Part shown: positions 9,857 to 61,797 of the stretch, one piece after another
Numbering within the stretch: position 1 is the stretch's first letter
Layout of the letters: each line of letters opens with the position of its first letter
Virus record (IMG/VR): IMGVR_UViG_3300044612_001159
Location: 51,666-115,665 of that record
Source of the DNA: a virus
DNA: 64,000 nt
Strand: one strand, 5' to 3'
The notes under the pieces: model-generated
Databases searched by the model: none
The model's input: the letters and a program-made list of their open reading frames with translations, nothing else
Told to the model about the DNA's origin: nothing
Made by a program: the position numbers and the translations under genes

Positions 9857-9897
9857 AATATTCCTCCTTGTTGATATGACAATATAATTATATCACG

Positions 9898-35100: not shown

Positions 35101-36628
35101 GAACAATGCTAGAATAATTGTTTTCATTAAAGGCTTGATCATAATCAAATATATTTATTGATCCATTTGAAGCAACGAGTTGTCCAACTGGCAAACCGCT
35201 AACTCCAAGGTCAGATGCACTTTTATTTATTGAATAATCCAATGTCTTATCTGATATATTCATTACAAGTCGGGGAGACATTTCTATCAGATCAAATGTT
35301 GAGTCTTTCACATTCATTGTATCAACTACAATTCTTATTCCAGAAATATATTCAAACTCCCTATATTGAACCTTACCATCTAATGTTCTTAAAAATTTAC
35401 TTGGATCTGTTGCGTCTACAACAAAGTTGGTTAGCCTATCTACAGTTTCATCTTGAACATACCACCCATATTTTGGTCTAATAATTGTATAATCTTGACC
35501 GTTCCAAATGTGATATTCTCCAATGTCATTTTCATTTTCTTTAATAAGGTACGCATATCCAATTACCGACTCTTTTGGTAAAAATAGTTCAGTTGGATAT
35601 GTTTCTGCAAATACAAAATTATCTCTCCACTCATCTGGAACAATTAGTCCATAAGCAATTTCAACATATCCATCACTTTTAATAATTGAAGAGCCATCTC
35701 TTCTTCTTTTTGATGGATCAAAAGATATAAGGTCTTGCCAATTATTATCTTTTAAAACTTGAATCTTCCACTTGCTAGGAGTTTTTTGATTTAACTCTCC
35801 AAAAAATGGATCAGCAAAAGACCCTGTAGAGGATGAAAAAGGACCAAGATTTTCTGTACCCGTATGCGTTTGCATCTTAATAACAATCCTATTTGTAGGA
35901 ATTTTTTCTTTATAAACAACAAATGGACAAGCGTCTTCAATGTCATACTGAGGCCCTCTTACCTTAGAAGCAATCCCATATTCTTGTCCACCCTCAGTTC
36001 TATAGGATGTCCAATATTTAAATATATCATTTTTATCTGGCATGTAATATCTTGGTCTGTCTGCCATAAATAAATTAGGGTGGTGTAGTTTTCCATTTTC
36101 AAGAAACACTGCTTTATTAATTCCAGATCTAGGTCTGAACTGATTAAAACAATCCTCTAGAGAGTATAGCGTTTGAAGTTTTTCTTTTTTAGTTAAAAAT
36201 ATTGTTGGCACATCATTATTATCAAATGATCCATCGACTGCAACATCTGCATCTGTTGCCCCAGTATAAAAGTTTCCAGCATCATTAATATCAAAACTTG
36301 TAGGTAAAGAAGAGTATATAGAAGATGGTTGTTCTGTACTCACCCTCCATCGATTTCGAGTGTCCGTGTCAGAAATCTTACACTCATAAGTCGCACCTGA
36401 AGAAGATTTGCCTATTGCTCCAGCAGGGGAACAAAAAGCCCCTGGGGTAATGGTCCATACCGAACTTATTGGGTTTGGTGTTGAAGTTTGGGTTGGCCTA
36501 TATCTATAATTACCAACATGTTTTATATTTGTTGGTATATTCATATTCCATTCTGCAGTAATTACCGACTTATTTCTAATAGTTGGAGATGTCTCCAGAA
36601 ATGTCTGCAGGTCTTTGTCTTCAAACAT
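32177..36628 (-). CDS. Large tail hub/central tail fibre protein
   Basis: 1483 aa, second gene downstream of TMP; C-terminal IPTIQLGDIVSV hub motif. Confidence 0.7.
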   Translation of the reverse strand: MFEDKDLQTFLETSPTIRNKSVITAEWNMNIPTNIKHVGNYRYRPTQTSTPNPISSVWTITPGAFCSPAGAIGKSSSGATYECKISDTDTRNRWRVSTEQPSSIYSSLPTSFDINDAGNFYTGATDADVAVDGSFDNNDVPTIFLTKKEKLQTLYSLEDCFNQFRPRSGINKAVFLENGKLHHPNLFMADRPRYYMPDKNDIFKYWTSYRTEGGQEYGIASKVRGPQYDIEDACPFVVYKEKIPTNRIVIKMQTHTGTENLGPFSSSTGSFADPFFGELNQKTPSKWKIQVLKDNNWQDLISFDPSKRRRDGSSIIKSDGYVEIAYGLIVPDEWRDNFVFAETYPTELFLPKESVIGYAYLIKENENDIGEYHIWNGQDYTIIRPKYGWYVQDETVDRLTNFVVDATDPSKFLRTLDGKVQYREFEYISGIRIVVDTMNVKDSTFDLIEMSPRLVMNISDKTLDYSINKSASDLGVSGLPVGQLVASNGSINIFDYDQAFNENNYSSIVHKYTDRHIQFKFYEVIVDVNGWDYWVPIKTLYSDSFPKSDVVSKRVSISLRDLYWYLESMTAPQILMTEVSVSSAVSLLLDYIGFSNYTFKRVANEKEVIIPYFFIPPDRSVAEILQDIAVSTQTAMFFDEYNNFVMMSKNYIMPTKEQRPTTFALKGTNDLFEDREITNKTLEKSKLANIISVSAQSNIVYNDGVINYTPRHIQRSIGSIKQASLLDEERYYTYKPALLWEVSGTENTKSLNNEIGTQSSYLLTAIPLNANLSADVPVVKNNVVINNTFSLGEAVFWIARYNGYFYSQGEIIKYDAVQHNVTGFGNVWITSIEDYQYYFAKLPFNGKIYPTGLVRIYSEPKYFEQGGVIKLQNGPVVKHGRGQFGTNVVEHTAGISDYWKSDDNVKGCYMSSEYLFDNKTPIPATTVSSAGKTTDTGVSADAIGRTSTRTGLIKNFFSTTLTGEITTQTQQQPGSIQSSALSLTGPNFTTKEKPRNFISYVHKSLENKKYKHFGTRMRIVGKIENNQDRGQTSNGSSTYFVVNGTTPDKNINISGGSAGIAIMLNPITNVGYYFEIAALGLGKLSDTEKQGVSNVFFYKIKSNNGSAVPVKLWDGLGQITVDDGKFTGQSRSFAEENPTVYDLAVEYEDIGTTRRFYLYLNGVVIKTVDDIDPLPAYSSMALFTRGSSRAMFENVYALCNNYAQNTSFKLGAPVNSVFGDTEIDANESFRKYSISGLIQNTYLTGISSSEPPKYDIYFEEFGSIMRELAAFNFKYDKAYPALSAKISPTFNKMKGYAVSGFRAGSYGAEFLIFNTTDAPLSLDETSGNYLRIQGITFTQQSDNNLTVDEYFNKNSLVSNPQFVADKLISNPYKFKQDYQDIKLSRMTYGKKDFAIDTTYIQSQDEANSLMEWLIEKIAKPRRSIGAQIFAIPTIQLGDIVSVDYKENDISMASNPNNRFVVYNIEFSRSSDGPSMTLFLSEVV

Positions 36629-37299
36629 TATACCTCTTCCAGTGTTACAGAAACATTCCAGTAATCAAACTTGGTTCCTCTTTTTTCAACCGAATATGAA
36701 AAATCACTAATAAACATTTCAACTAGTTGATTATATTGCTGGAGATGCTTATACGGCTCTGGCGTACCCTTGAATATTCCTTTTCTATCATATGTAAGAA
36801 ATACCCAAAATGATCCCTTGTGTGAGTCATACCACTCTAACATGTCTGCTGCTCCTGCGCCTCCGTCTGTTGTGTATGCTTTATGTGGAGACAACCCAGT
36901 TGCTGAATTAAAATTTGGAAAATCCTCATGAGACCTAGATGGAATCATGTCCCAACTAGTGCTTATTGTAATCTTGTCTGCAATGTGATATGACCTCATT
37001 CGGCCATTAATCATTCGCTCCCGCTTTTCAATTCGCTCTGTCTTAATATCAATAGGCTGTCTGTTGTCATCAGTTAAAAATAAAAACTGGTCAACAAGAG
37101 ATTCATCCTCTATGCTTTCTGGATCAGTACCAACCTCAAAACCAATTGGGACATACAGTTTTTTCTTTGGGGTTGTTATGCTTGCAGGGTCTTCTACGAG
37201 TGTACCAGAATTTTCAGACCACAGCATACCGCTTGGTCTGTTATATTTTTTACGACCATTGACATACAACAGCCTTGGATCTACATCACCTTCTGCCAC
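36628..37299 (-). CDS. Distal tail-like protein
   Basis: Immediately after TMP; RERMINGRMR, WNVSVTLEEV. Confidence 0.6.
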   Translation of the reverse strand: MAEGDVDPRLLYVNGRKKYNRPSGMLWSENSGTLVEDPASITTPKKKLYVPIGFEVGTDPESIEDESLVDQFLFLTDDNRQPIDIKTERIEKRERMINGRMRSYHIADKITISTSWDMIPSRSHEDFPNFNSATGLSPHKAYTTDGGAGAADMLEWYDSHKGSFWVFLTYDRKGIFKGTPEPYKHLQQYNQLVEMFISDFSYSVEKRGTKFDYWNVSVTLEEV

Positions 37300-40200
37300 C
37301 TATAGCCACCCCCCTAATTCTTCTATCATCAACCCTCTTGATTGTTGCCATTACTGCTTGTGCAATTTCATCTGGATTTGCATCAGTCTTAGCATTAACT
37401 GTTAAGGTATATGTATTATTATACACTGAACCGCTAGACAATTCTCCGTTATTTATTTTTCTCATTGTATCTAGCCCATACGAATCAACAGCATATTTAC
37501 TCATAATAAACTCGCCTGGAGTTAACATTGCTGGAACTGTATCAGTACCCCTAGCAAATCCACCCATTGCAAATCTTTGAATTAAGCCACCCATGGCTTT
37601 CCAGTTTGCAAACTGCGATGCTGCTATGGCATTGCCACCAAACTTCTTAATATCTGCTGCAGCCTTTTTCTTTGCTGCTTCTTCTGCAGCCTTTTTAGCA
37701 TTTGCTGCCTTTACCTCTGCAGAAAATGCTGCTGCGGAGGCTGCTTTTTGTGCTGGAGTATTTGTTAGTTCGTCTAAATGGGCATATGGAGTGGCGCCCA
37801 TCTTTTTAATATTTGCATTAACAATTTCTTTATTAAAGGCATCTGCTCTATCCTTCATATTTAATAAATCATTAACATGGCTTCCTGCAGTTTGTCCAGC
37901 ATTCTTAGTAATATTTGCTACTGTAACAGCATTAGCCAATCTTTGCAAGTCTTCTAAATGAAGCGCTGCAGTTGATCCGCCAGTATTAAGACCATAGTTA
38001 AGTGCATCAGCAGTTGAAGATCCTGTACTGCCACTATTATTATTTGTGGTCGCACCGCCAGTATTTGTCGTGTTCACACCCCTAGGCTTGATGTCTGCTT
38101 GACTTGCCACACATTCACCTGTGTAATAATTGTAATATGGTCTTGAAGGTCCACATGGCCCTTGTGGTGTTGTAGTTGTTGTTCCCTTATCATCCTGAAC
38201 ACAGTTTCCATTTACCATGCTGAATCCTGTAGGACATGGTTTTGCACCTGTCTCATCCTTAACACAGTTTCCATTTACCATTTTGTATCCTGTAGGACAT
38301 ACTGTTTCGGCATCACTCTTAACGCAGTTACCATTAACTAGTTTAAATCCTGGAGGACATGTAGTAACACCTGGACCTTCATACTCTCCAGCGGGAATGA
38401 TTGGATCTGTATTTACTGTTTGATTCTTATAGGCAGCAATCAAAGCATTAACAATATTAAGAGCATCTTGCATTTGCTTAACGAATTGTGCGGAACTAAC
38501 TCTTGCAAGATCAACCTCATTTTTAATTCTTTCCCACGCATCTCTTGTTTTTCCTAATACAGTAATTCCCTCAATCGCTTTTTCTAAAGCAAGTTCGTTA
38601 AGTCTTAATGTCTCTCTGTTTGGCTCAAGACTCTTTTGTTCAATATCATAAATTTCGTCTTGAAGTTCTTTAATCCTTCCCTCAATTTCAATTCTACTTC
38701 TGCCGTCTTTAGATCTTAGTTGTGACAGTTCGTACTCTCTTGACTTTTCTAAGGCATCTCTTTGTTTTGTTACAGCATCGGCTGCAGACTGCGCTCTCAT
38801 TTCTTGTGCAGCACGAGCAGCAGCAGCAATGTCTCCAGATGTCAAAGCCTCAGCAAGAGTTAGTTGACCTTTCTGTTGCTGCGATATTGAGGCATTTGCT
38901 TTTTCAACTTCATCAAGAGCCTTTAATCTTTCATCATATTTTTCATTTACCTTGGCCTCTTGGTCTTCAATTTCTTTTAAGCCTATTTCCTGTATTCTGA
39001 TCTGTTCTTGTTTTACGGCAATTAGTTCTTCAGCCTTTTTAATTTCATCTTTTAATTTTTTATTTTCATCATCAAACTTAAATCTTAGCCTTGTTTCTTC
39101 TACATCAAACGCTTCCATTGCATTGCTATATCCAGTATCAAATATATCTTGCATTCCTTCAATAGTTACTTGCTTAAGTTTTAATTCAACCCTTGCTTTA
39201 TCTACTGCCTTCTGAAGCAAATCTTTAAAATCTTTATTGTCTATACCAAAATTAATTAATAAACCTTGTAGTGCAGAACTGTCCATAACTGCCTGGAGTT
39301 GTTCTTGTGTCAAACTTTCAAATGCTCCAGTGATTTTTGTTAATAAGTTTGCTCTATCTTTCAACTCTTGCTCTTCTTGTATACCAGCCTCTACAGCGGC
39401 ATATTCTCTTTTGGCCTTAGTTGATTTATTCCATGCCTTGGTTATCTTTTTTATTTGTTCATCAGACAACTTTTTATTGGCAATTGCTGCTGCAAATGTG
39501 GCATCTGCTACTGCTTCTAGAGCAACAGAACCCTCTATACCTGCTGCCTGCAATCTCTTAAGTGCTGCAGTTTGATTGCCTATTTGGTTGGCCATTTTTT
39601 GCTGCTCACTAACAAATTCTCCAAGTTTAACAGACTGTAGTGCATCTCCAATGCTCTTTGCACCATCTTTTATTTTTATAATATTTCCTTTTTTGTCAAA
39701 CTCAAACAACTTACCCTTCTGCTTTTCATATTCTTTAGGATCCATTCCGACTATGAGTTCAATCAGGTCTTCTCCTGCTCCTAGTTTTCTCATATCGTTT
39801 TCAATACCGCTAAAAATTTCAATAGTTTTCTTTCCACCAAATAGTTTATTTAGAGACTTGAATGAGGCATCAAAACCTTCTGTAACCTTGATTTGATTTT
39901 TACGAACATCTCTTAGGCGTTTTAAAAGATCATCTAATGGAGATGACTTTGGCTTATTTCCACTTCCTTTATTTGCTCCAGGTGCTGGCGCATTTGCAGT
40001 TATAGATGCCCCCTCTGTAACAGCCTTAAAGCCTTGCTGCTCTTTATAATGTGCAATTAGTGCAGCCTGAGACAATCCTTTGTACTGTGCTCCACCGTAT
40101 GTTCGTCCCTCAATTACTGTATTTTCTTTTAGCCATGTCTGATAGTCATCTGTTGCAACAATCTGTGGGTCTGGAACATTGATGACAGAAGCAATTGTAG

Positions 40201-43200
40201 TTGTATACACCTTTTGCTGGTCTTCTGTTAAAGTTTTAAAGTAATCTTCATTAAATGCATTAGTTCCTTTAACCTGTGGAATAATTTCGTACACCATGGT
40301 TGCTGTTAAATCTTTTTTGCCTTCAATGGCGTCAAGCATTGTGTTTAGTTGTTGATAGGCTGCATCATTTTCTGTGTAGTATTTAACCAAAACATTAGAC
40401 GGTATAACTGCGTTTAAATTGTTTAACTTAATCATATTTTTAGCAAAGTCTAGTGCGTCTGAATCTTCTTCAAATGCTGAAACTTTAGTAATAAATTGTG
40501 CCTGTACTGTTTTGTCAATATCTCCCTTAGCGTTAAGAATATTTTGAGCAGCAACACCAATTGATTCAGATGTAGCACCACTAAACTTTGTTATAATATT
40601 CATCATCTTTGGAGCAATGTCTTTGTTATCTGTTGCCATCTGAAGAAGTTGTCTAAAAACTGATGGAGGAATATCGCCACTTGCCATTTTTGCCTGAATT
40701 AAAAATTCTTGACCTTTATCTATTGCGCCATCTTTACGAAGTTGTCCTGCCTGTGCACCAACAACATCCATGTAAGCAATTTCATTTGGGTTATCTTTAT
40801 ATCTAGCCTTAGCAGCCTTTTTCATTCCACTCATCATTGACTCTTGCATTCCTCCAGCACTGTTGTACTGAGAAACAATATCTTCTTGAATAACTCTTTG
40901 TGCTGCTGTTAAATCATTTCTTTTATCAATTAACTTTTCTTGCAATTCATTTGCTTCATTAATTTTTCCTTGAAGTCTTAACTCTTCAACTTTCTTTTCC
41001 ATATACAAATCAAATGAATCTAGCATTTGCTTATTTTGCTCCATTGCAATTTTAGCATCTACTGCATATGCCGCTCCAAGTTGTGCAGATTGTTGAGTAA
41101 ATTTCTTTGAGGCAAAATATCCACCAATTGCTCCTGCTGCAGCACCGATACCGCCACCAATTATTGCTCCAACAGCATTTCCAAGAACTGGGACAACGCT
41201 TCCAAGAGCAGCACCAAGTGTTGCTCCTATCGCTGCGCCACCTGCAGCAGATGCGCCTATGCCTACCTTTTGCATTGTTTTTTGTCCAGCAAGTTTAGTA
41301 ATCATGCCAGCATTTTCAATGTTTGACATGTTTGACTGCATTCTCTTTTGATTTTCGGCAATCATTCTTGTTCTAACTTCAAGAGGGTTTTTATCTAAAT
41401 CCTCTCCGTTTGGTCCAAGAACTTTTTCCATTTGTGCAATAACTTTAAGGCCTATAGACATATCCCCTGCTTCTTTAGCAACATTCATTGCAAGACTTTT
41501 TGCCTGATTTACATCCATTGCTCCAGACATTACTGCAGTTGAAAGTTGACTTGTTAAATCAGAAACTGCTTGACCACCCCTGCCTGCTGCATTTTGTTTT
41601 GCTATGTTTTCAGTTAAAGCCTTTCCTTCTTTTGTTTGAGTAAAAGCCTCGCCGTATGTTGTTTTGCCTGTTGCTGGACCTAGCATTGAGAATGAATTCT
41701 TTCTTCTTAGATCCATTTGTTCTGATGCAGTTACTTTACCGCCAAACTTTGCGATACTTTGAATAGCAGAAGATGATCCTCTAAACTTTTCTGCTTCTTG
41801 CAAAACCTTTTCTTGAGCACTATTAAATGCCATTCTTAATGCAATAAATGCTCCAACTGTTGCTGTAAGCCCTGCAATTACTGCCATTACTGGGCTCTTT
41901 AGCATAGGCAAAATCATTGAAAGACCCATCAAAGGCATCATTATTTTTTGAGATATCTCCCCGACTTTTCCTGGAGCCATTGATCCTAGCATTGCAATAC
42001 CAGAAGCAGCCATGGCTGCGCCACCAACACCCATTCCTGGCCCCTTGCCTGCTGCGACTCTTGCGGTCCTCTTGCCTTCTCGCTTTTGAATATAAGACTT
42101 AATTCTTCCAGATGGGGTCATTTTTTCTCCATCTTGTGCCATGTTTGCAGCAACCACTGGCTGAGGAACTGGAGCCTGTGCTGCTATCTTACTTAGTCTC
42201 TTGTTATCTCTTTCTAACTTTTTTAGTTTACGACGAAGAGATTTTTGGTTAGCATCTATTGGCCCTGTTCCGTATAGAGCAGTTCTAGACGCTGCTGCAG
42301 CAGACTGTGAAATAGTTAGACCAATCTTTTGTCCTGTTGACTTAGCCTCTGCTATAGAAGATCTTGCTCCAGCAACTATTGATGAACCTATTGCACTGCT
42401 TGATTCTGGAGCATCTGCAAAACCAGGAACTCTTACACCTCTAGGACCTTGAACGATTCTCTTGCCCTTTTTGGGCTTATTCATTTCTCTTGTATCTTTT
42501 GGACTACCTGACTTAACGCCTCTAGTTTTTCTTCTTGTTTTTGGCTTTTCTGTTTTTCCATCTTCATCTTCAACCAATTCATCTGGCTTTACTAGAATAG
42601 CGTTATGCTTTGCGTGTACGAGTCTCCAGTTAACCTTTTTGCCTTCTTCAAGCCTGTCTATCATTGCCTGATAGTATTTTTGATCTTCTGGTCCAAGATT
42701 AAATTTTGCTATTGTTTCTTTTAGTTTTGGTAATGTTCTATCAATTTCAGCAATCATTGCTTTATGGTATTCATCAGGAGTCATATTCTTTGCAATGTCT
42801 GCCGTTGCATTTCCAAACCAGAACGGAGACTTTCCTGCTGCTGGGCCTTTAACTCCACTTAAATTCTTTTCTGCCATTTCAAGCATTGATGGCATTCTTT
42901 CTGCATAACCTCTTGCTCCAGATGCTCTATCTAGTACACCAGCCTTGCCAACATCTACCAACCTATTTCCGCCTAAGTTTCCTTTCTTTAGGTCGTCATC
43001 ACCACGAAGATTTGCTGCAACTAGTTGTCTAAAATATTGTTCCCTGCTAAAATTGCCTGACAATTCTTTTGGAGTAAACTTTGGATCATAGGCAGACTCA
43101 AGAGCAAACATTGTTTTTCCAGTGTATGGATCCTTAATAACTCTAAGTTCTTGCTTTGGAGCCTCAAGCCCATGAACATCTCTTGCTATTATTGTTGCTC

Positions 43201-46200
43201 TTTGCTCTGCAAGCGCTGCTCGCAAATCAGGCATTGGCTTTACATAAACTTTTTTGCCGTCTTCTGTTAGGAACACTCCAGAGGCATCACGAGCAGCAAC
43301 ATTGCTGTATCCAGTACCCTTTTCAAGTTGCTTGCCATATGTGGTAATTGGTCTGCCATCAATGTCTTCTGCGGTTAAGCCTTGTAGTGCTGCTCTTGCT
43401 TTTTCAAGAAGTTTTTTCCCTGCAGTACCGCCAATCTTTACTGCACCAGTGTCTCCACCAGATCTTCCAGTTTTAAATACCCAGTTTCCGTTTTTATCCT
43501 GTACTAAAGAACCATTATTTCTTTTATCTGTTAATGTCCAGTCATTTGGATTTTTAGACTTCTTCTTTCCACTAACTTCTGGTCTTTCGTATGCAACAAC
43601 CTTGTCACCATCTCGCTTAACATCAAGCATTATTCCTGGGGCTTTTTTAGCAAGATCCTCTATTGCAGAAACAACAGATGGGTTAGTGTTTGGAGCATAA
43701 GTTCTTATATTTTTGATAAGATCTTCAACAGCCATTTTCTTTGCGTCATACTTTATAGTTGAAGCAGATGCAGCGCCGATGCCAGCAACAGAGTATATCT
43801 TTTCAATTGCTGGTGCAATTCTTGGGTCTCTTGCAAGACCACCCATTACACCTGTTTTAAGATTACCCATTCGTGAGTATATTACTCTGTCACCTATTTT
43901 TGTTCCATCTGGAAGGTTTTGCAAAGACAATATTAAGTTTTTACGAATCTTGTTTGTTACTCTTGAAGCCTCGTCTGCGGTTAAATTAGAAGGTGGCTTC
44001 ATTAACTGAGAAGTCATTGTTTCTACAGCACGAGCCTTTCTTATTTCTGCCTCGTATTCTCTTACATCTAAAGCATTATTTGTAAGTTTCTTGTGAACTT
44101 CTTCTGGAATGTCAAACCCAAGTCCACGATATCCTAATGCTCTTTCAATTCCTCTTGCCCCAAGGCTTGTTCGTATATCTCCAAACTGATCAGAAATATT
44201 TCTTGTTTGCATTTGCTGTGGTTTGGTTGCATGTGCAAAAACTGTATCTGGTTTAGTTCTTTTCTTTTTAGTTTTAGGAACAGCCGTTCCATCATTAATT
44301 AAAGAAGTAATAACTGGTCTATTTGCTGGATCTTGTGCTGCTTGTGCAGGAATAACTGCTTCGCCAGGAGATAGCAATGCTGGGACAATATCGCCTGCAC
44401 CCATTGGTCCTGGAACTCTTTCAACGCCTGTTGAGTATCTTCTACTTTGTGGGATACCGCCACCTTTTCCACCTCTACCTACTGGTCCAGTAAATCCTAA
44501 TTGTGAAGCGATTGCCCTTTGATATGCTGCTGCAAGTGCATTTACTGCTGCAGTTTCAGAGGTAAAGGTTTGTCTAAGTTTTTGGTGAACTTGATCTAAT
44601 GATGCCGCTACTGCAGATGCCTCAAGTTGTTGTTGAGTTAAATAGTCTGTTTGGTTACCAAGTATCTGTGTTGATGAGCCAGCACGGTTAAACGAGGTTT
44701 TCATTGTTGCAAATAACTTAATTATATTTGCAAGTCCGTTAGCCAACAGACCGAATGTCATAAGAGCAATCGGTCCAATTGCTCCTAGCGCTACGGTGAG
44801 AATAGTTAAAAACTTTTTACTTCCTTCTCCCAGGTTATTAAATTTATCTAAAATCTTAGATGCAAATTCTACAATTGGAGTAAGAGCCTTTAAGAACTGC
44901 TCTCCAACTGGTGCAAGTGTTACCTTAAGATCTTCTATAGACTTTTTAAACTTATATGTTGTTGTATTTTCTATCTTGTCCAATTCTCGCTGTGACAGAA
45001 TTGCTAACTCTTCTGTTGTTGCTTTTGTTAATCCCAAAACTCTGGCTGCCTGAGAGCCCTCTGCAGTTACGTTCTTAAATAGTGTTGAAAGTCTTGAAAA
45101 CTGGAACTTTCCAAACAATTGCTCAATTGCTCTTGCACGATTAAGCGGATCTAGTGTATCTAAGGCTTGTGAAAACCCTACAACAGTTGCTGCAACATCT
45201 CCTTTATTTGCTTCAACAATACCTTTAATATTTATGCCAAGCCCTGCGAGCATCTTAGATGCTTTTTCAGATGGATTGATTAATGATGCTAAACCAGACT
45301 TAAGTGCGTTAGCGCCTTCTGATGCATTAATACCACCTTCCTTCATTGCTGTCAGGAAGAATGCAAGATCTTCAACATCTCCGCCCAATTGTTGAACCAC
45401 TGGTCCAGCCTTTGGAATTGCAACTGTTAAGTCTTCAATAGATACAACAGTTTGGTTTTCAACTGCGTTAAGGAAGTCAATCTTTTTTGCTAAATCTTCT
45501 GCTGCTACACCAAATGCATTTGTAACAGAAATAGTTGTCTCAAGTGCCTGCTCCTGTTCAACACCACCAAGAACAGCAAGTCTTGTTGCTTCGGTAACTT
45601 GTGCAGTAAGTTCTGCGCCCATCTTACCCATTGCTGCAGCATTTGCTGCCATCTCCATGGTTTTTTCTACCGCAACGCCATACTTAGTATATTCTTTTGC
45701 AAGTGTCTGTATCTGCTTAACCATTGCGTCAGTTTCTTCTTGCGTAGTAAACATTTCACCATAAACACGCTTAAACCTAATTGCTTGTTCTTCAAGTTTC
45801 ATGAAGGTTTTTGCAGCAGTAGATCCAAGAAGCATAAGCGGAACTGTAAAACCAACCATTAACTGGCGACCAGCCCACTGCGTATTCTTACCAAAATTTA
45901 ATAGATTTGTTGAGCCCTGCTTTAGTAATTGATTTAATAATTGCTGACGCTGTGCTGCAATCTGTGTTTGTGTAGCAAGATTTTTCATGTCCAGCGTAAG
46001 CGGTCTTACAGCAATGGCTTGAAGGGCTCCATTTGCCCCACGACCCATCTTTATATACTGGGTCTGGATATCTTTTACACGCTCTCGTGCAACTTTATTT
46101 ATTGTTTCAAATTCAGACTTAAAAAGCCTACCGAAAGTTTTAGTGGCTGCTCCAGTATATCTAAAATATTCTCTGGAGGATAGTTTATTTTTTTCTAAAG

Positions 46201-46438
46201 CATTAGTAAAGTGCTCTGTGCTTGTAGCAACCGTTCTCATGGCTGCTTGGAATTGTCCAGTAGCATTTATGCTGTTCATCAAGTTTTGTGCTTGATTTGC
46301 TGCTACCGCTGACGCTGCTGCGCCAGACTTTGACATCTGTGTGTGGAAGGCTGATATTTGACGCTGTAGAAGTTTTAAACTTGCTAAAGCATCTGACGTA
46401 TCAATATTTACATGAATATTGGATTGAACATCAGCCAT
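37286..46438 (-). CDS. Tape measure protein with internal kinase-like domain and Cys-rich repeats
   Basis: 3050 aa, TP901-type TMP core (ANALKSGLASL), TM segments, coiled coils, downstream of tail chaperones. Confidence 0.93.
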   Translation of the reverse strand: MADVQSNIHVNIDTSDALASLKLLQRQISAFHTQMSKSGAAASAVAANQAQNLMNSINATGQFQAAMRTVATSTEHFTNALEKNKLSSREYFRYTGAATKTFGRLFKSEFETINKVARERVKDIQTQYIKMGRGANGALQAIAVRPLTLDMKNLATQTQIAAQRQQLLNQLLKQGSTNLLNFGKNTQWAGRQLMVGFTVPLMLLGSTAAKTFMKLEEQAIRFKRVYGEMFTTQEETDAMVKQIQTLAKEYTKYGVAVEKTMEMAANAAAMGKMGAELTAQVTEATRLAVLGGVEQEQALETTISVTNAFGVAAEDLAKKIDFLNAVENQTVVSIEDLTVAIPKAGPVVQQLGGDVEDLAFFLTAMKEGGINASEGANALKSGLASLINPSEKASKMLAGLGINIKGIVEANKGDVAATVVGFSQALDTLDPLNRARAIEQLFGKFQFSRLSTLFKNVTAEGSQAARVLGLTKATTEELAILSQRELDKIENTTTYKFKKSIEDLKVTLAPVGEQFLKALTPIVEFASKILDKFNNLGEGSKKFLTILTVALGAIGPIALMTFGLLANGLANIIKLFATMKTSFNRAGSSTQILGNQTDYLTQQQLEASAVAASLDQVHQKLRQTFTSETAAVNALAAAYQRAIASQLGFTGPVGRGGKGGGIPQSRRYSTGVERVPGPMGAGDIVPALLSPGEAVIPAQAAQDPANRPVITSLINDGTAVPKTKKKRTKPDTVFAHATKPQQMQTRNISDQFGDIRTSLGARGIERALGYRGLGFDIPEEVHKKLTNNALDVREYEAEIRKARAVETMTSQLMKPPSNLTADEASRVTNKIRKNLILSLQNLPDGTKIGDRVIYSRMGNLKTGVMGGLARDPRIAPAIEKIYSVAGIGAASASTIKYDAKKMAVEDLIKNIRTYAPNTNPSVVSAIEDLAKKAPGIMLDVKRDGDKVVAYERPEVSGKKKSKNPNDWTLTDKRNNGSLVQDKNGNWVFKTGRSGGDTGAVKIGGTAGKKLLEKARAALQGLTAEDIDGRPITTYGKQLEKGTGYSNVAARDASGVFLTEDGKKVYVKPMPDLRAALAEQRATIIARDVHGLEAPKQELRVIKDPYTGKTMFALESAYDPKFTPKELSGNFSREQYFRQLVAANLRGDDDLKKGNLGGNRLVDVGKAGVLDRASGARGYAERMPSMLEMAEKNLSGVKGPAAGKSPFWFGNATADIAKNMTPDEYHKAMIAEIDRTLPKLKETIAKFNLGPEDQKYYQAMIDRLEEGKKVNWRLVHAKHNAILVKPDELVEDEDGKTEKPKTRRKTRGVKSGSPKDTREMNKPKKGKRIVQGPRGVRVPGFADAPESSSAIGSSIVAGARSSIAEAKSTGQKIGLTISQSAAAASRTALYGTGPIDANQKSLRRKLKKLERDNKRLSKIAAQAPVPQPVVAANMAQDGEKMTPSGRIKSYIQKREGKRTARVAAGKGPGMGVGGAAMAASGIAMLGSMAPGKVGEISQKIMMPLMGLSMILPMLKSPVMAVIAGLTATVGAFIALRMAFNSAQEKVLQEAEKFRGSSSAIQSIAKFGGKVTASEQMDLRRKNSFSMLGPATGKTTYGEAFTQTKEGKALTENIAKQNAAGRGGQAVSDLTSQLSTAVMSGAMDVNQAKSLAMNVAKEAGDMSIGLKVIAQMEKVLGPNGEDLDKNPLEVRTRMIAENQKRMQSNMSNIENAGMITKLAGQKTMQKVGIGASAAGGAAIGATLGAALGSVVPVLGNAVGAIIGGGIGAAAGAIGGYFASKKFTQQSAQLGAAYAVDAKIAMEQNKQMLDSFDLYMEKKVEELRLQGKINEANELQEKLIDKRNDLTAAQRVIQEDIVSQYNSAGGMQESMMSGMKKAAKARYKDNPNEIAYMDVVGAQAGQLRKDGAIDKGQEFLIQAKMASGDIPPSVFRQLLQMATDNKDIAPKMMNIITKFSGATSESIGVAAQNILNAKGDIDKTVQAQFITKVSAFEEDSDALDFAKNMIKLNNLNAVIPSNVLVKYYTENDAAYQQLNTMLDAIEGKKDLTATMVYEIIPQVKGTNAFNEDYFKTLTEDQQKVYTTTIASVINVPDPQIVATDDYQTWLKENTVIEGRTYGGAQYKGLSQAALIAHYKEQQGFKAVTEGASITANAPAPGANKGSGNKPKSSPLDDLLKRLRDVRKNQIKVTEGFDASFKSLNKLFGGKKTIEIFSGIENDMRKLGAGEDLIELIVGMDPKEYEKQKGKLFEFDKKGNIIKIKDGAKSIGDALQSVKLGEFVSEQQKMANQIGNQTAALKRLQAAGIEGSVALEAVADATFAAAIANKKLSDEQIKKITKAWNKSTKAKREYAAVEAGIQEEQELKDRANLLTKITGAFESLTQEQLQAVMDSSALQGLLINFGIDNKDFKDLLQKAVDKARVELKLKQVTIEGMQDIFDTGYSNAMEAFDVEETRLRFKFDDENKKLKDEIKKAEELIAVKQEQIRIQEIGLKEIEDQEAKVNEKYDERLKALDEVEKANASISQQQKGQLTLAEALTSGDIAAAARAAQEMRAQSAADAVTKQRDALEKSREYELSQLRSKDGRSRIEIEGRIKELQDEIYDIEQKSLEPNRETLRLNELALEKAIEGITVLGKTRDAWERIKNEVDLARVSSAQFVKQMQDALNIVNALIAAYKNQTVNTDPIIPAGEYEGPGVTTCPPGFKLVNGNCVKSDAETVCPTGYKMVNGNCVKDETGAKPCPTGFSMVNGNCVQDDKGTTTTTPQGPCGPSRPYYNYYTGECVASQADIKPRGVNTTNTGGATTNNNSGSTGSSTADALNYGLNTGGSTAALHLEDLQRLANAVTVANITKNAGQTAGSHVNDLLNMKDRADAFNKEIVNANIKKMGATPYAHLDELTNTPAQKAASAAAFSAEVKAANAKKAAEEAAKKKAAADIKKFGGNAIAASQFANWKAMGGLIQRFAMGGFARGTDTVPAMLTPGEFIMSKYAVDSYGLDTMRKINNGELSSGSVYNNTYTLTVNAKTDANPDEIAQAVMATIKRVDDRRIRGVAIGGRR
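38196..38359 (-). repeat. Three tandem CPxG(F/Y)xxVNGNCV repeats inside TMP
   Basis: About 60-63 bp units visible in DNA and protein. Confidence 0.9.
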
Positions 46439-46456: not shown

Positions 46457-46780
46457 TTAGTTATTTACAAGATTACCAAGTAGAGTTGCGTCTGAAAGTC
46501 TAATTCCAGATGCCTCTTCGACAATCTTATATACTGTAGGAAGATCTATATTTTCTTCTAGGGCTTCCTTGTCTTCCGCCAACTCTGGCTTGTATTGTTG
46601 CATTGCGATTTGTACACACTCCATAAGTAGAGTCATTGACTTTTCATTGTCTTCCGCTACTTTGGCGATATCTTCAAACTTCTTCATAAACGGACGAAGT
46701 AGTGAGATCTTTAATGGTCTTACCTTGATCTTTGTTCCATCGATGAGAGTTACTGTCTTTTCTTCCGTGGCAGTTGCCAT
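46457..46780 (-). CDS. Tail assembly chaperone (G-like)
   Basis: Directly upstream of TMP; SD AGGAGGA; own promoter TGGTATAAT at 46808-46816. Confidence 0.75.
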   Translation of the reverse strand: MATATEEKTVTLIDGTKIKVRPLKISLLRPFMKKFEDIAKVAEDNEKSMTLLMECVQIAMQQYKPELAEDKEALEENIDLPTVYKIVEEASGIRLSDATLLGNLVNN

Positions 46781-46837
46781 TTATTCCTCCTTATAAGGTT
46801 AAAGTTAATTATACCATAGCGGAGTCTATTTTTTTTG

Positions 46838-47518
46838 CTATTCTATAACCTCATAGGTTAGGCCCATTCCTATTCCAAAACCAGCCCTTTCTGCATTTTT
46901 ACCCTGAAGTGCAAGGATATCATTTCCATTTTCTGCTGCACCTTTACTAAATACCCTAGCCTTCATATCTTCCCATTCATTACTATTCCCTGAATTTTTA
47001 TCAAGATCAACACCCTGCATAGCAGCAGCAAATTTTTTATCACTATAATCTAAATCTCTTTTAGCCTTAATCGTTGCAGTTAGTTCTGGCATTGACAAAG
47101 ATTGTTCTAATTCCTCATAGTCTTTCCAAATGCCAATCAAAAACGCCTCTGCTTCTAATTTTGCTAAATCCAAAGTCTCCCAGGAAGATCCACTATCTAC
47201 GGCTTGAGACTTTACTGGCTCTTCTGATTTTTGATTAATCTTAATTCCTGCTGCAATATCGATAACCTCATATATTGTTGGTAAGTCTAAATTGTCTTCA
47301 AGGTCATCTATAGTTTTTATATATGGAGCATATTGCTTCATTGCTACAAGGGCACAAAGAACCAAGATAGATATTGATTCATCATCTGTTTTTGCTAATT
47401 TTATTGTTTCAAATTTTGTTAAAAATTCTCTAAGATATTTTATTTTAAGTGGAGCAGCCTCAACTATTGTTCCATCAATCAGAGAAAAACTTTTCTTTTC
47501 ATATACGCTTGTTGCCAT
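46838..47518 (-). CDS. Tail assembly chaperone, long form (GT-like), paralog of the downstream gene
   Basis: N-half aligns with 46457..46780; extra C-half (WKDYEELEQSLSMPEL). Confidence 0.72.
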   Translation of the reverse strand: MATSVYEKKSFSLIDGTIVEAAPLKIKYLREFLTKFETIKLAKTDDESISILVLCALVAMKQYAPYIKTIDDLEDNLDLPTIYEVIDIAAGIKINQKSEEPVKSQAVDSGSSWETLDLAKLEAEAFLIGIWKDYEELEQSLSMPELTATIKAKRDLDYSDKKFAAAMQGVDLDKNSGNSNEWEDMKARVFSKGAAENGNDILALQGKNAERAGFGIGMGLTYEVIE

Positions 47519-47583: not shown

Positions 47584-48240
47584 TTAGTCGAGTGAACGAT
47601 CTACGATTTTACCGTATGATGCGTCATCGTTTGGAAGGAGACGGAATGATACTTCAAACATTGAAGCCTCATCACGCTTTGCTGATACTGTAACATTCTC
47701 AATTGAGAGTGCACGATATGCAACATAGATTCTTTCCTTTGGAGTTGCTGAAGAACCAGATCCTGGTCCTACTGCTACTAGTCCACGCTCTAGTGGAACG
47801 TCACCAATATCACCTGCGGACATCTTCAATGTTGAGAGTCCTGATGCTGATACTAGGTCTGTATCATCTGCTGCAATTGCAACTAGAAGATTTTCTAATG
47901 TTGCCTCTGCGAACGATGTATTTAGATTAACTGTCATACCTTGCTTGAATAGACGAGCAACGTCGAGAAGTTGATCTACTGCTACTTCACCGAAATCTGG
48001 CTGGAATGCGAGTTCCAAACCGTTCGATGTATAACCTACGTTTGTGTAATTTTCGTCATCGAGTGACAAAGTTTCCTTGTAGGATGTGGCGGATGCGGTC
48101 ATTGCTGGAAGATCTAGTAACGCTTGTGCGTCAGTAATCTTTCCAGTTGATGAGTTGTATCCGATTGGACCTGCATTATGCGTAAATAGTGCTGCTGCAC
48201 CTACGATAATGTTACTACTTGAACCACGGCTGTATGCCAT
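47584..48240 (-). CDS. Major tail (tube) protein
   Basis: NIIVGAA, VGYTSNG, VDQ, AEATLENL; SD GAGGTG. Confidence 0.85.
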   Translation of the reverse strand: MAYSRGSSSNIIVGAAALFTHNAGPIGYNSSTGKITDAQALLDLPAMTASATSYKETLSLDDENYTNVGYTSNGLELAFQPDFGEVAVDQLLDVARLFKQGMTVNLNTSFAEATLENLLVAIAADDTDLVSASGLSTLKMSAGDIGDVPLERGLVAVGPGSGSSATPKERIYVAYRALSIENVTVSAKRDEASMFEVSFRLLPNDDASYGKIVDRSLD

Positions 48241-51410: not shown

Positions 51411-52544
51411 TTATGAATCTGAAGCAGCGTCAGCGAATGCAATTGCATCCTCTTCTTCCCATTGAATACCGAAGCGAACGAATACAGTATATTCAATTGT
51501 ATCCTTCTTCGCTACGTACTCACGGTTTACAGTAATATCTCTCTGGAATCCCCAAACACGGTTGGCAGGGAATGTCAAATCGATATAGCCTTCTGGGTAG
51601 TAAGGAACTTCTTGAACTTCAATTCCGAGAACACGAGTTGTACGTGCTCCACCGAATGTCTGTCCAATACCGTCGAGATAGTTCTGACGGTTTGCTTGAG
51701 TGCTTCCTGGAACTTGTCCAGCAAACGCTTCAGCAACTGCATCTGCAAGTGTACCGTTGTTCTTAACGATTCCACCGAATGCGTCTGTACCTGCGTAGAA
51801 CTTAAGATTGTTCTTAAGTGCACGGTACTTACGTGGCATTGCATTGATGATGCCCTGCATGACGCTAGGTGTCCAAGCATTATCTGCTACGGTCACTACT
51901 GACTCATGTGCATCTCCGTTTGTCTTTACCTTGTTGATAAAGCCTGGCATGATAGACAAGAATGCTCCTGTTGTACCATCACCATTGATAGCGAGATCTT
52001 CGATATCATTTGCGAATGCGTTGGTCATCAAGCGTACCAAGTGATCTTCTAGAGCATCACCTTCGACACCATCTTCCAAAGATTCTGCAGTTACTTCCCA
52101 ATCAAGACGAATCTTCTTGGTAGTAAGTTCGACCTTGGAGAAGGTTGCGCCTGTGTTTGTGTAGTTACCAACTGCTTGCGCTGCTGCACGAATTACACGC
52201 TCACCTACGTTAATCTTCTCAAGTTCCATTGAGTTAGCCTTCATTGTTACACGACGGCCATCCTTTGCTAACACTGTAGCGTCCCAAACATAGTCGATAA
52301 AACGACGAGCCTGCTCGGGGCGCAAAATTCCAGAAGCCGCTGAACCACTAGGGTTAACAGCATTTGCTCCGCTAGTTGTTCCTAACGTTGCTGTTGGAAT
52401 GTTACCAAGTGTATCTGCACCTGGATTTGTTACTCCACCAATACCACCTGATGCGAATGCACCTTGGCCCTGGTAAAGTCCTGGTGCTGTTCCACCTAGA
52501 TCTCCAGATGCGCCTGGTTGGTTTTTGATTATTTCTTCTGACAT
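51411..52544 (-). CDS. Major capsid protein (HK97 fold)
   Basis: GILRPEQARRFID, EDLAINGDG; SD AGGAGGTG before ATG 52544; follows protease. Confidence 0.9.
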   Translation of the reverse strand: MSEEIIKNQPGASGDLGGTAPGLYQGQGAFASGGIGGVTNPGADTLGNIPTATLGTTSGANAVNPSGSAASGILRPEQARRFIDYVWDATVLAKDGRRVTMKANSMELEKINVGERVIRAAAQAVGNYTNTGATFSKVELTTKKIRLDWEVTAESLEDGVEGDALEDHLVRLMTNAFANDIEDLAINGDGTTGAFLSIMPGFINKVKTNGDAHESVVTVADNAWTPSVMQGIINAMPRKYRALKNNLKFYAGTDAFGGIVKNNGTLADAVAEAFAGQVPGSTQANRQNYLDGIGQTFGGARTTRVLGIEVQEVPYYPEGYIDLTFPANRVWGFQRDITVNREYVAKKDTIEYTVFVRFGIQWEEEDAIAFADAASDS

Positions 52545-52567
52545 ATTGTCACCTCCTAGTGATTTGT

Positions 52568-61727: not shown

Positions 61728-61764
61728 AATATGTATCGTCCTTTCAAAAACGGAATAAGTGTTA

Positions 61765-61797
61765 ATTATAGCAGAGTTTTGCAAAAAGTAAAACTCT
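61765..61797 (-). promoter_or_regulatory. nrdJ promoter (TGCTATAAT) with overlapping inverted repeat
   Basis: AGAGTTTTGC-N5-GTAAAACTCT over the -35/spacer region. Confidence 0.55.

What the first reader, a model, noticed from the sequence alone, without database searches (positions are those of the whole stretch)
42600..43380. Kinase-like (HipA / PI3K-PI4K-type) domain embedded in the tape measure protein: candidate virion-delivered effector
Seen: within the TMP, a globular non-coiled segment reads ASGVFLTEDGKKVYVKP (Gly-loop and beta3 Lys), ALAEQRATIIAR..GLEAP (helix-C Glu), LRGDDDLKKGNL (catalytic D-x-x-x-x-N loop) and LVDVG (DFG-equivalent). Known: this order matches atypical kinases of the HipA/PI3K-PI4K group, and TMPs are ejected into the host envelope ahead of the DNA. 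Inference: the domain lies between two TM clusters (FLTILTVALGAIGPIAL.. and GMGVGGAAM..VIAGLTATVGAFIAL), so it could be placed in the cytoplasm at the moment of infection and phosphorylate host proteins, defence systems or phosphoinositide lipids (actinobacteria contain PI) before any phage gene is expressed. The usual His of the catalytic loop is Lys here, so activity is not assured.
Basis: partly seen in the sequence, partly recalled or inferred. Interest (0 to 1): 0.88.

Follow-up and report, generated by a model that had tools for sequence, protein, structure and literature searches.

The report
Kinase domain inside phage tape measure
The giant tail tape measure protein of an abundant, uncultured lake phage carries a complete kinase-type enzyme domain with all catalytic residues intact. 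This suggests the phage brings a ready-made kinase into the cell at the moment of infection, which has not been described for tape measure proteins.

Summary
Window 37286-46438 (-) encodes a 3050-aa tape measure protein (TMP). Residues ~1029-1285 form a globular module between hydrophobic clusters at aa 541-577 and 1466-1538. HMM and profile searches find no known family. An AlphaFold2 model built on 59 homologues (pLDDT 90.5) matches only protein-kinase-like folds: CotH Z 12.3, CtkA 11.1, PI4KIIalpha ~10, MavQ 9.5-9.7, HipA/HipT ~9.4. They sit in the expected strand, helix and loops.

The domain occurs almost only in giant TMPs: 162 clusters at 50% identity and 323 IMG/VR contigs. None was found in deposited phage genomes. 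It sits in a mosaic slot. Relatives 85-99% identical over the first 650 aa have kinases only 41-100% identical, and 12 of 118 lack the kinase. The host is probably a freshwater actinobacterium.

I read it as a new atypical kinase family carried as swappable TMP cargo, probably active. Delivery into the cytoplasm and the substrate (protein or phosphatidylinositol) are inferred, not shown. The scan had already noted this same stretch in another window.

The parts
37286..46438 (-). Tape measure protein ORF, 3050 aa (P0001)
   Evidence: Single open frame. Pfam PhageMin_Tail E 2.6e-23 and eleven PHROG TMP families. Flanked by chaperone-like ORFs (46457-47518) and tail genes (32177-37299).
44345..46438 (-). 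Conserved N-terminal TMP module, aa 1-698, ending in the motif VPALLSPGEAVIPA
   Evidence: 85-99% identical in the 118 best relatives; more than 5228 clusters at E<=1e-10. In kinase-less relatives the alignment breaks at aa ~698.
44708..44818 (-). Hydrophobic (TM-like) cluster 1, aa 541-577
   Evidence: Kyte-Doolittle 19-aa window peak of 2.04; uncharged stretch 543-566.
43385..44341 (-). 'Mid' module of unknown fold, aa 700-1018, directly upstream of the kinase
   Evidence: No Pfam hit and atlas scores <=0.83. Present in only a subset of relatives at 35-100% identity.
42584..43354 (-). Atypical protein-kinase-like domain, conserved core aa 1029-1285 (AF2-folded stretch aa 1019-1284 = 42587-43384)
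   Evidence: phmmer gave 162 hits, with the core at query residues 70-326. AF2 pLDDT 90.5, pTM 0.89. VIA-align Z 12.1-12.3 to CotH and 10.4-11.1 to CtkA, with all top-50 matches being kinases. Foldseek top hits are all kinases.
43238..43240 (-). K1067, beta3 lysine (motif VYVKP)
   Evidence: K in 135/135 homologues. Lies in model strand 45-51. Codon checked.
43205..43207 (-). E1078, helix-C glutamate
   Evidence: E in 139/139. Lies in model helix 54-69.
42977..43000 (-). Catalytic loop D1147-x-D1149-L-x-x-x-N1154, directly after model helix 114-127
   Evidence: D1147 is D in 140/147 and N in 7. D1149 146/147, L1150 143/147, N1154 147/147.
42947..42955 (-). D1162-V-G1164, the DFG-equivalent metal-binding Asp
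   Evidence: D 147/147 and G 143/147. Followed by a conserved A1172-S1173-G-x-R1176 segment, the presumed activation/substrate loop.
42044..42583 (-). Basic linker, aa 1286-1465 (net charge +22)
   Evidence: Charge count. Low pLDDT from aa 1285 on.
41825..42043 (-). Hydrophobic cluster 2, aa 1466-1538 (2-3 TM-like segments)
   Evidence: Hydropathy peaks of 1.73-2.06.
41108..41266 (-). Hydrophobic cluster 3 / glycine zipper, aa 1725-1777
   Evidence: Pfam Gly-zipper_Omp E 2.2e-4, below cut-off. Hydropathy.
37496..37537 (-). C-terminal copy of the VPAxLxPGE motif, aa 2968-2981
   Evidence: Regex scan. The motif region is shared with Gordonia and Mycobacterium phage TMPs.

Best explanation
Residues ~1029-1285 of the tape measure protein are a complete two-lobed domain of the protein-kinase-like superfamily. 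It keeps the full ATP-binding and phosphotransfer set: beta3 Lys1067, helix-C Glu1078, catalytic Asp1149 and Asn1154, and metal-binding Asp1162. It is therefore most likely an active ATP-dependent phosphotransferase. It is an accessory, recombinationally swappable cargo module placed just after the conserved N-terminal TMP core.

The proposed mechanism is inferred. The module travels in the tail lumen in a non-native, extended state. It is expelled with the TMP at infection and refolds at the cytoplasmic face of the host membrane. There it stays tethered by the flanking hydrophobic clusters and phosphorylates a membrane-proximal host target before any phage gene is expressed.

I slightly favour a protein Ser/Thr target, because the closest folds are CotH, CtkA and HipA. 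Phosphatidylinositol or another small molecule is the main alternative.

My odds for each step:
- Kinase-like fold: ~0.9.
- Catalytically active: ~0.75.
- Acts after ejection in the newly infected cell: ~0.5-0.55.
For: SHOWN:
- TMP identity.
- A high-confidence model, pLDDT 90.5 and pTM 0.89.
- Every one of the top-50 rows in a Foldseek-independent search of 48,161 chains is a kinase-fold protein. CotH gives Z 12.1 with 221 residues aligned at rmsd 4.2; CtkA 10.4; PI4KIIalpha 10.1; MavQ 9.7; HipA 9.3. The second-look search gives the same ranking, and all Foldseek top hits are kinases.
- K/E/D/N/D are invariant in 135-147 representative homologues of 30-60% identity. They lie in the canonical secondary-structure elements.
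- The language-model neighbours with a family name are LepB_N, HipA_2 and PI3_PI4_kinase at 0.91-0.93 (a lead only).
- Cargo behaviour: 106 of 118 close TMP relatives carry the domain at 41-100% identity while their N-termini are 85-99% identical. In the other 12, aa 699-1350 are replaced by unrelated sequence. Two relatives add a cytidylyltransferase-like domain in the same slot.
- In the viral structure library the same fold appears inside large phage ART-, MuF- and portal-fused proteins, including those of Mycobacterium and Gordonia phages, which are the class thought to be ejected with the DNA (PMC5512222).

INFERRED:
- Cytoplasmic exposure. The segment between TM clusters 1 and 2 has net charge +52, and the flank of cluster 2 is +6, consistent with the positive-inside rule.
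- For phage lambda, the TMP is proximity-labelled by a TurboID fusion to the inner-membrane protein ManZ during genome injection (PMC13190303).
Against: - No activity, substrate or location has been measured.
- No sequence method links the domain to any kinase family. Pfam, PHROGs, PDB phmmer/hmmsearch and the CotH HMM give nothing, hhalign against an actinobacterial PF00454 alignment gives E 0.51, and only 1 of 53 members hits PF00454, weakly at E 0.008. The assignment therefore rests on a predicted structure plus the motif pattern.
- I could not inspect the model coordinates, so the Lys-Glu pairing and active-site geometry are unverified.
- The K-to-E spacing (11 aa) and N-to-D spacing (8 aa) are shorter than in canonical kinases.
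- Three in-register copies of a ~30-kDa globular domain cannot be natively folded in a ~4-nm tail lumen (my own estimate). The model therefore needs storage in an unfolded state and refolding after ejection.
- Twelve of 118 close relatives do without the domain, so it is not needed for tail assembly or DNA entry as such.
- The topology argument is weak.
Confidence: 0.55

Rival explanations
1. Lipid or small-molecule kinase variant. The TMP-tethered domain phosphorylates phosphatidylinositol, or another envelope lipid or precursor, of an actinobacterial host at the entry site. This would remodel the membrane for channel formation or signalling rather than modify a protein. It is a sub-variant of the delivered-kinase model with a different substrate.
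For: - PI4KIIalpha Z 9.8-10.1 and the PI 3-kinase MavQ Z 9.5-9.7, with LepB among the Foldseek hits.
- Atlas neighbours LepB_N 0.93 and PI3_PI4_kinase 0.91.
- One family member hits PF00454 at E 0.008.
- The only stretch hhalign pairs is VFVKP with the AVYKP of actinobacterial PF00454 proteins (not significant).
- The domain is flanked by TM clusters.
- The host is probably an actinobacterium, a phylum that makes PI (established knowledge).
- Two relatives carry a cytidylyltransferase-like domain in the same slot, which hints at small-molecule chemistry.
Against: - The best structural matches, CotH and CtkA, are protein kinases.
- There is no conserved DRH-type His: position 1151 is S/Q/G/K.
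- No significant sequence relation to PF00454 was found.
- Whether the actual host contains PI is unknown.
Confidence: 0.2
2. Producer-cell kinase. The domain works in the cytoplasm of the cell that makes the virions, late in infection. It would phosphorylate the TMP itself, tail or chaperone proteins, or host factors, as CotH does for spore-coat proteins. Its presence in the virion would then be incidental, or it would be removed by processing.
For: - The top structural match is CotH, an assembly-time kinase of structural proteins (CotH's role is from established knowledge).
- ATP is certainly available there.
- This reading avoids the steric and refolding problem of a globular domain in the tail lumen.
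- TMPs of other phages are proteolytically processed (established knowledge).
Against: - It gives no reason why such an enzyme should be fused inside the TMP between hydrophobic clusters.
- The slot behaves like effector cargo: swapped, lost, and diverging much faster than the structural N-terminus.
- Similar folds occur in head-packaged ART/MuF/portal fusion proteins.
- No protease domain or obvious cleavage motif was found. The short GVxRVPG similarity at aa 671 and 1337 is not general.
Confidence: 0.2
3. Non-catalytic module. The domain would be a pseudokinase or nucleotide-binding domain serving as a structural spacer, plug, length-determining element or binding platform in the TMP.
For: - Pseudokinases are common in the superfamily; Fam20A, for example, is among the matches.
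- No sequence-level family assignment exists.
- The spacing between catalytic motifs is unusual.
Against: - All five catalytic residues, and further loop residues (G1164, A1172, S1173, N1192), are invariant across 135-147 divergent homologues, while the rest of the domain drifts to 30-40% identity.
- A mere spacer would not be lost or replaced in 12 of 118 close relatives without other change.
Confidence: 0.07

Closest known systems
CotH spore-coat kinase (Bacillus cereus, PDB 5JD9/5JDA)
   Same: Best structural match: Z 12.1-12.3, 219-221 residues aligned, rmsd 4.1-4.2. An atypical bacterial kinase fold that sequence searches for canonical kinases do not detect.
   Different: Only 10% identity. 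The CotH Pfam HMM finds nothing in this phage genome even at E<=10. CotH is a free protein acting during spore assembly, not a module inside a virion protein.
CtkA, secreted atypical Ser/Thr kinase of Helicobacter pylori (PDB 3AKJ/3AKK/3AKL)
   Same: Top Foldseek hit (E 9.7e-4) and VIA-align Z 10.4-11.1. A compact HipA-like kinase that the bacterium exports to act in another cell.
   Different: 13-14% identity with no HMM relation. It is a stand-alone protein that acts on eukaryotic cells.
PI4KIIalpha, and the Legionella lipid kinases MavQ and LepB (PI3K/PI4K-type)
   Same: Z 9.8-10.1 for PI4KIIalpha and 9.5-9.7 for MavQ; LepB appears in the Foldseek list. There is a similar Gly-rich loop followed by a V-F/Y-x-K-P beta3 motif, and a D-x4-N catalytic loop plus D-x-G. 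These are membrane-associated enzymes.
   Different: Not a member of Pfam PF00454 by HMM or hhalign. The family has no conserved catalytic-loop His. No lipid-binding evidence exists.
HipA / HipT toxin kinases
   Same: Z 9.3-9.5. The atlas neighbour HipA_2 scores 0.92.
   Different: No HipA_C or HipA_N HMM hit and no antitoxin partner. The domain is embedded in a structural protein rather than a toxin-antitoxin operon.
Enzymatic motifs embedded in tape measure proteins (e.g. the peptidoglycan-hydrolase motif of mycobacteriophage TM4; PMC1796659)
   Same: An accessory enzymatic module inside an actinophage TMP, dispensable for assembly and acting at infection.
   Different: The known TMP modules are small cell-wall hydrolase motifs that work outside the membrane without ATP. 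This one is a ~260-aa ATP-dependent fold that needs cytoplasmic access. Four literature searches found no kinase in a TMP.
Kinase domains of phage 'polyvalent proteins' (Iyer et al. 2017, PMC5512222)
   Same: The concept of a kinase delivered with the virion as one domain of a giant multidomain protein whose modules recombine. BFVD shows this fold in ART/MuF/portal-fused phage proteins.
   Different: Those kinases are described as lacking the whole C-terminal lobe and occur in Verrucomicrobia/Chlamydia and Bacteroidetes (pro)phages. This domain has a helical C-lobe (model residues 167-261). It sits in the tape measure protein, which that paper does not mention.

Membership tests
Protein-kinase-like (PKL) fold superfamily | Two-lobed fold: an N-lobe beta-sheet with helix C, and a helical C-lobe | tested here: met
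   AF2 pLDDT 90.5. All top-50 rows of two VIA-align searches and of the Foldseek search are kinase folds. The best match is Z 12.3, and alignments span model residues ~4-262.
Protein-kinase-like (PKL) fold superfamily | Conserved beta3 Lys and helix-C Glu | tested here: met
   K1067 135/135 in model strand 45-51; E1078 139/139 in model helix 54-69. The salt-bridge geometry was not inspected because no coordinates were available to me.
Protein-kinase-like (PKL) fold superfamily | Catalytic loop D-x4-N after helix E, and a metal-binding Asp (DFG-like) | tested here: met
   D1149 146/147, N1154 147/147, D1162 147/147, G1164 143/147. The loop follows model helix 114-127.
Protein-kinase-like (PKL) fold superfamily | ATP-dependent phosphotransfer activity | not testable with these tools
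   Needs biochemistry.
Pfam PI3_PI4_kinase (PF00454) | HMM match at or above the gathering score | tested here: not met
   No hit for the window's domain at E<=1. One of 53 homologues hits at E 0.008. hhalign of the family profile against 13 actinobacterial PF00454 proteins gave E 0.51 over 12 columns.
Pfam PI3_PI4_kinase (PF00454) | DRHxxN catalytic loop with a conserved His | tested here: not met
   The loop reads D-L-K-K-G-N here. The His position is S/Q/G/K across the family.
HipA toxin kinases (HipA_C / HipA_2) | HMM match and toxin-antitoxin gene context | tested here: not met
   No Pfam hit. The domain is internal to a TMP ORF within a tail gene module. Fold similarity is Z 9.3-9.5 only.
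CotH kinases (PF08757) | HMM match | tested here: not met
   No match in the whole phage genome at E<=10, while the control genomes matched. The structural resemblance is the strongest found, at Z 12.3.
Phage tail tape measure protein | TMP family domain, position in the tail gene module, great length with hydrophobic segments | tested here: met
   PhageMin_Tail E 2.6e-23 and PHROG TMP families to E 9e-98. Portal, major capsid protein, Ig-tail, chaperone-like and minor-tail genes lie around it. Three hydrophobic clusters. Sources name relatives 'TP901 family phage tail tape measure protein'.
Polyvalent proteins (Iyer et al. 2017) | Kinase clade without a C-terminal lobe, in MuF/portal-linked head proteins | tested here: not met
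   The model has a helical C-lobe, with helices at 167-261. The carrier is a TMP, and the paper never mentions tape measure proteins.

The most novel reading that the evidence does not exclude
The tape measure protein of a very abundant group of lake actinophages delivers a membrane-tethered phosphoinositide-type lipid kinase. This kinase phosphorylates the host's phosphatidylinositol at the entry site within seconds of adsorption. It would be the first phage, and the first virion-borne, lipid kinase. It would also show that the middle of a TMP reaches the ATP-containing side of the membrane.
Probability: 0.15. Interest if true: 0.9.

Novelty: new variant of a known kind. Interest (0 to 1): 0.7.

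Why it matters
Tape measure proteins are known to carry small cell-wall-degrading motifs, but not ATP-dependent enzymes.

- **What it implies about TMP topology.** A conserved, apparently active kinase in the middle of a TMP implies that this part reaches the cytoplasmic side of the membrane. It would have to refold there after travelling through the tail.
- **A new route for early host manipulation.** Siphophages would be able to act on the host, or on membrane-located defences that target TMPs, before any gene is expressed.
- **Abundance.** The carrier TMP has more than 5000 90%-identity clusters of relatives. The exact DNA recurs in lake metagenomes from 2016 to 2024. The activity, if real, would therefore be widespread in freshwater phage-host interactions.
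- **A new kinase family.** It adds a kinase-fold family that is visible only by structure.
- **Testability.** The domain is about 270 aa with clear Lys/Asp mutants.

Tried and rejected
- **Sequence searches of the domain.**
  - Pfam and PHROGs hmmscan of the segment gave nothing except a PHROG of unknown function at E 0.013.
  - phmmer and a 53-sequence profile against PDB sequences gave only chance hits at E 0.5-0.7.
  - tblastn of the domain against 50,697 deposited phage genomes gave no match.
  - tblastn with a divergent family member (P0147) hit only the post-kinase TMP motif of Gordonia and Mycobacterium phages, not the kinase.
- **Single-sequence AF2** was useless, with pLDDT 39.
- **The CotH HMM** gave no match on the whole phage genome.
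- **hhalign** of the family profile against 13 actinobacterial PF00454 proteins gave E 0.51.
  - The survey behind that alignment found PF00454 in 17 of 201 genomes of the MAG's phylum.
  - That tally includes the unpublished genome G083.
- **Scanning all 53 family members against Pfam** gave one weak PF00454 hit and otherwise noise.
The genomic context of distant members, and whether the short hits are stand-alone genes or contig-end fragments, could therefore not be checked.
It was run with the single protein instead.
  - The GVxRVPG similarity (aa 671 and ~1337) is short.
  - The real repeated motif, VPAxLxPGE, lies at aa 685 and 2968. It follows the kinase within 150 aa in only 25 of 214 relatives. 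I do not treat it as a cassette boundary or cleavage site.
- **The atlas search on the mid module** gave no usable lead.
- **Atlas taxon labels** ('Spirochaetota' for the nearest unnamed clusters) conflict with the actinobacterial host signals and were not resolved.
- **No complex prediction was run**, because no binding claim is made.

Full report
**1. What is in the sequence**

The finding lies inside one 3050-aa open frame on the minus strand, window 37286-46438. Coordinates 42600-43380 correspond to residues 1020-1279.

The ORF is a tape measure protein (TMP).
- Pfam PhageMin_Tail matches aa 246-443 at E 2.6e-23.
- Eleven PHROG tape-measure families match aa 8-650, with the best at E 9e-98.
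- The neighbouring genes form a tail and head module. It comprises a portal (53958-55544), a major capsid protein (51411-52571), an Ig-domain tail protein (47584-48240), two chaperone-like ORFs (46457-47518) and a 1483-aa minor tail protein (32177-36628).

The window is part of a 115,665-bp IMG/VR virus record rated 100% complete, with about 38% G+C.

It also shows a third, glycine-zipper cluster at aa 1725-1777.

**2. Is the segment a conserved domain?**

A phmmer search of aa 960-1330 against 1.84 billion representative proteins gave 162 hits at E<=1e-3, of which 128 were at E<=1e-30.
- Almost all hits are 2000-4400 aa long.
- The shared core is aa ~1029-1285.
- In a local re-analysis, 112 of the 151 proteins held also contain the same N-terminal TMP module. 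Most of the rest look like fragments.

A pattern scan of IMG/VR found 323 viral contigs encoding a relative. No deposited phage genome has the domain at tblastn sensitivity.

I aligned the domain from the 150 representatives, which are 30-60% identical to the query.

| Residue | Conservation |
|---|---|
| K1067 | 135/135 |
| E1078 | 139/139 |
| D1149 | 146/147 |
| N1154 | 147/147 |
| D1162 | 147/147 |

Other residues at >=95% are G1043, S1045, G1054, P1094, P1104, S1115, Q1138, R1145, D1147 (D or N), L1150, G1164, A1172, S1173, N1192, F1208 and Y1256.

It carries no information about activity.

**3. What fold is it?**

Sequence methods see nothing.
- Pfam, PHROGs, and PDB searches by phmmer and by profile were all negative.
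- The CotH HMM found nothing on the whole genome.
- hhalign against an alignment of 13 actinobacterial PF00454 proteins gave E 0.51. The only paired stretch was VFVKP with AVYKP.
- One of 53 members hits PF00454 weakly, at E 0.008.

Single-sequence AlphaFold2 failed with pLDDT 39. With a 59-sequence alignment the model of aa 1019-1294 reached pLDDT 90.5 and pTM 0.89.

Structure searches of that model found only kinase folds.
- All Foldseek top hits against the PDB are kinases: CtkA at E 9.7e-4, then CK2, VRK1, WNK and LepB.
- A Foldseek-independent alignment to 48,161 representative chains gave 17 chains at Z>=8 and a top 50 made up entirely of kinase-fold proteins.
- The leading matches in that search were:
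  - CotH: Z 12.1, 221 residues aligned, rmsd 4.2.
  - CtkA: Z 10.4.
  - PI4KIIalpha: Z 10.1.
  - MavQ: Z 9.7.
  - HipA: Z 9.3.
  - Fam20, HipT, ATM, PI4KIIIbeta, actin-fragmin kinase and PI3Ks follow.
- The second-look search agrees, with CotH at 12.3 and CtkA at 11.1.

The tool's guidance is that Z under about 8 can be a common arrangement. Here the best values are well above that, cover both lobes, and all belong to a single superfamily.

The invariant residues fall where the fold requires them.
- K1067 lies in strand 45-51 of the model.
- E1078 lies in the following helix (54-69).
- The D-x-D-L-x3-N loop comes directly after the long helix 114-127.
- D1162-x-G follows 8 residues later.
- A conserved A-S-G-x-R loop and a helical C-lobe come next.

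The language-model atlas points the same way. It names LepB_N, HipA_2 and PI3_PI4_kinase as the nearest clusters with a family, at 0.91-0.93 (a lead only).

I could not read the model coordinates, so the active-site geometry itself remains unchecked.

**4. Context: a mosaic cargo slot**

The first 650 aa of the TMP have more than 5228 90%-identity clusters of relatives at E<=1e-10.

Among the 118 best relatives, which are 85-99% identical over the N-terminus:
- 106 carry the kinase, but at only 41-100% identity.
- 12, all 2543-2734 aa long, lack it.

In the kinase-less relative P0245 the alignment to our protein runs to aa 698 and resumes at aa 1351. About 370 unrelated residues with no Pfam match lie in between.

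The 'mid' module (aa 700-1018), directly upstream of our kinase, occurs only in a subset of relatives. In P0205 and P0210 a cytidylyltransferase-like domain (PF01467, E 2e-8) is inserted ahead of it. In most distant family members the kinase follows the N-terminal module directly, at aa ~755-1010.

In the viral structure library the same fold turns up inside large phage proteins annotated as ADP-ribosyltransferase, portal or head-morphogenesis (MuF) fusions.
- These include Mycobacterium phage Onyinye and Gordonia phages GodonK and Sixama.
- It also appears in 'PI3K/PI4K catalytic domain-containing' proteins of uncultured and haloarchaeal tailed viruses, with E from 7e-6 to about 3e-3.
- That class matches the 'polyvalent proteins' that Iyer et al. 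proposed are delivered with the DNA (PMC5512222).
- The kinases described there lack the C-lobe, and that paper does not mention tape measure proteins.

**5. Host and habitat**

Four lines of evidence bear on the host.
- The phage genome encodes a WhiB-family protein at window 6537-6710 (E 8.9e-13, above the Pfam cut-off). In the control set this family matched only Corynebacterium.
- Two contigs carrying the domain are binned in an 'uncultured Acidimicrobiaceae' MAG. This may be a binning artefact.
- The best cultured matches to the TMP N-terminus are ~130-kb Streptomyces phages, at about 30% identity.
- The exact kinase-coding DNA is held by at least 14 lake-water or freshwater metagenome runs dated 2016-2024, some of which may be the source sample. 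It is held in part by freshwater metatranscriptomes.

A freshwater actinobacterial host is therefore likely but inferred. The atlas label 'Spirochaetota' for the nearest unnamed clusters conflicts with this and was not resolved.

**6. How it most likely works**

Shown:
- A kinase-fold domain with an intact, invariant catalytic set.
- A location inside a bona fide TMP, between hydrophobic clusters.
- Accessory, swappable behaviour.

Inferred:
- TMPs leave the tail ahead of the DNA and engage the cytoplasmic membrane (established knowledge).
- For phage lambda, the TMP is the one phage protein robustly proximity-labelled by TurboID fused to the inner-membrane protein ManZ during injection. A membrane nuclease defence also targets TMPs (PMC13190303).
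- The 888 residues between TM clusters 1 and 2 have a net charge of +52, and the flank of cluster 2 is +6. This fits a cytoplasmic loop by the positive-inside rule, although only weakly.

I therefore favour a kinase that is stored unfolded in the tail and refolds at the inner face of the membrane. It would remain tethered by the TMP's hydrophobic segments and phosphorylate a membrane-proximal host target before phage gene expression.

My rough substrate odds are protein 45%, lipid (PI) 30%, other small molecule 15%, and inactive 10%.

The main difficulties are these:
- There is no biochemical evidence.
- The assignment depends on a predicted structure.
- Three in-register ~30-kDa domains must be stored in a ~4-nm lumen.
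- Twelve of 118 relatives manage without the domain.

The main rival is a producer-cell, assembly-time role like that of CotH. A non-catalytic role is unlikely given the invariance of the catalytic residues.

**7. Novelty**

Four full-text searches found no report of a kinase domain in a tape measure protein. Known TMP modules are cell-wall hydrolase motifs (PMC1796659).

The general idea of virion-delivered kinases within giant multidomain phage proteins does exist (PMC5512222). I therefore rate this a new variant of a known kind: a new, structure-only-detectable kinase family in a new carrier (the TMP), in an abundant uncultured phage group.

The same stretch was noted earlier by this scan in another window, as e1-6045465 and e1-6045467.

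Noticed in passing
window 6537-6710 (-): WhiB-family gene in the phage genome (Pfam Whib E 8.9e-13, above the cut-off). It points to an actinobacterial host despite the ~38% G+C.
   Followed up: partly
window 43385-44341 (-), TMP aa 700-1018: A ~320-aa 'mid' module directly upstream of the kinase. It has no Pfam match and no usable atlas neighbour. It occurs only in a subset of relatives at 35-100% identity.
   Followed up: partly
relatives P0205 (aa 728-856) and P0210: A cytidylyltransferase-like nucleotidyltransferase domain (PF01467, E 2e-8) inserted in the same TMP slot, ahead of the mid module and the kinase. It is a second ATP/NTP-dependent enzyme in a tape measure protein.
   Followed up: partly
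window 38198-38359 (-), TMP aa 2694-2747: Three tandem Cys-containing repeats, CPxG[FY]x[LM]VNGNCV, near the TMP C-terminus, with weak EB/EGF-like Pfam hits. Some relatives have a LysM domain in this region instead (P0160 aa 2762-2812).
   Followed up: no
window 44345-44386 and 37496-37537 (-): The motif VPAxLxPGE occurs twice, at aa 685-698 (end of the conserved N-terminal module) and at aa 2968-2981 (near the C-terminus). The protein looks as if a ~700-aa TMP had been extended by 2300 aa ending in the same motif. The motif region also matches Gordonia and Mycobacterium phage TMPs.
   Followed up: partly
window 55952-59668 (-): A 1238-aa ORF next to the portal gene with no Pfam match. It may be another large virion or ejection protein.
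   Followed up: no
window 59694-61784 (-) and 21928-25203 (-): The phage encodes a class II (B12-type) ribonucleotide reductase and a DnaE-type DNA polymerase III alpha subunit with a PHP domain.
   Followed up: no
window 46457-46780 and 46838-47518 (-): The two ORFs between the tail-tube-like gene and the TMP both match phrog_10504 over their first ~100 aa. This is a paralogous pair rather than the usual single chaperone with a frameshift extension.
   Followed up: no
window 2386-2458 (+) and 9897-9970 (-): tRNA-Thr(TGT) and tRNA-Asn(GTT) genes.
   Followed up: no
L098, L099 (genome contigs): Two different phage contigs carrying the kinase (99% and 57% identical) sit in one 'uncultured Acidimicrobiaceae' MAG. 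This is either a host hint or viral contigs mis-binned into the MAG.
   Followed up: no
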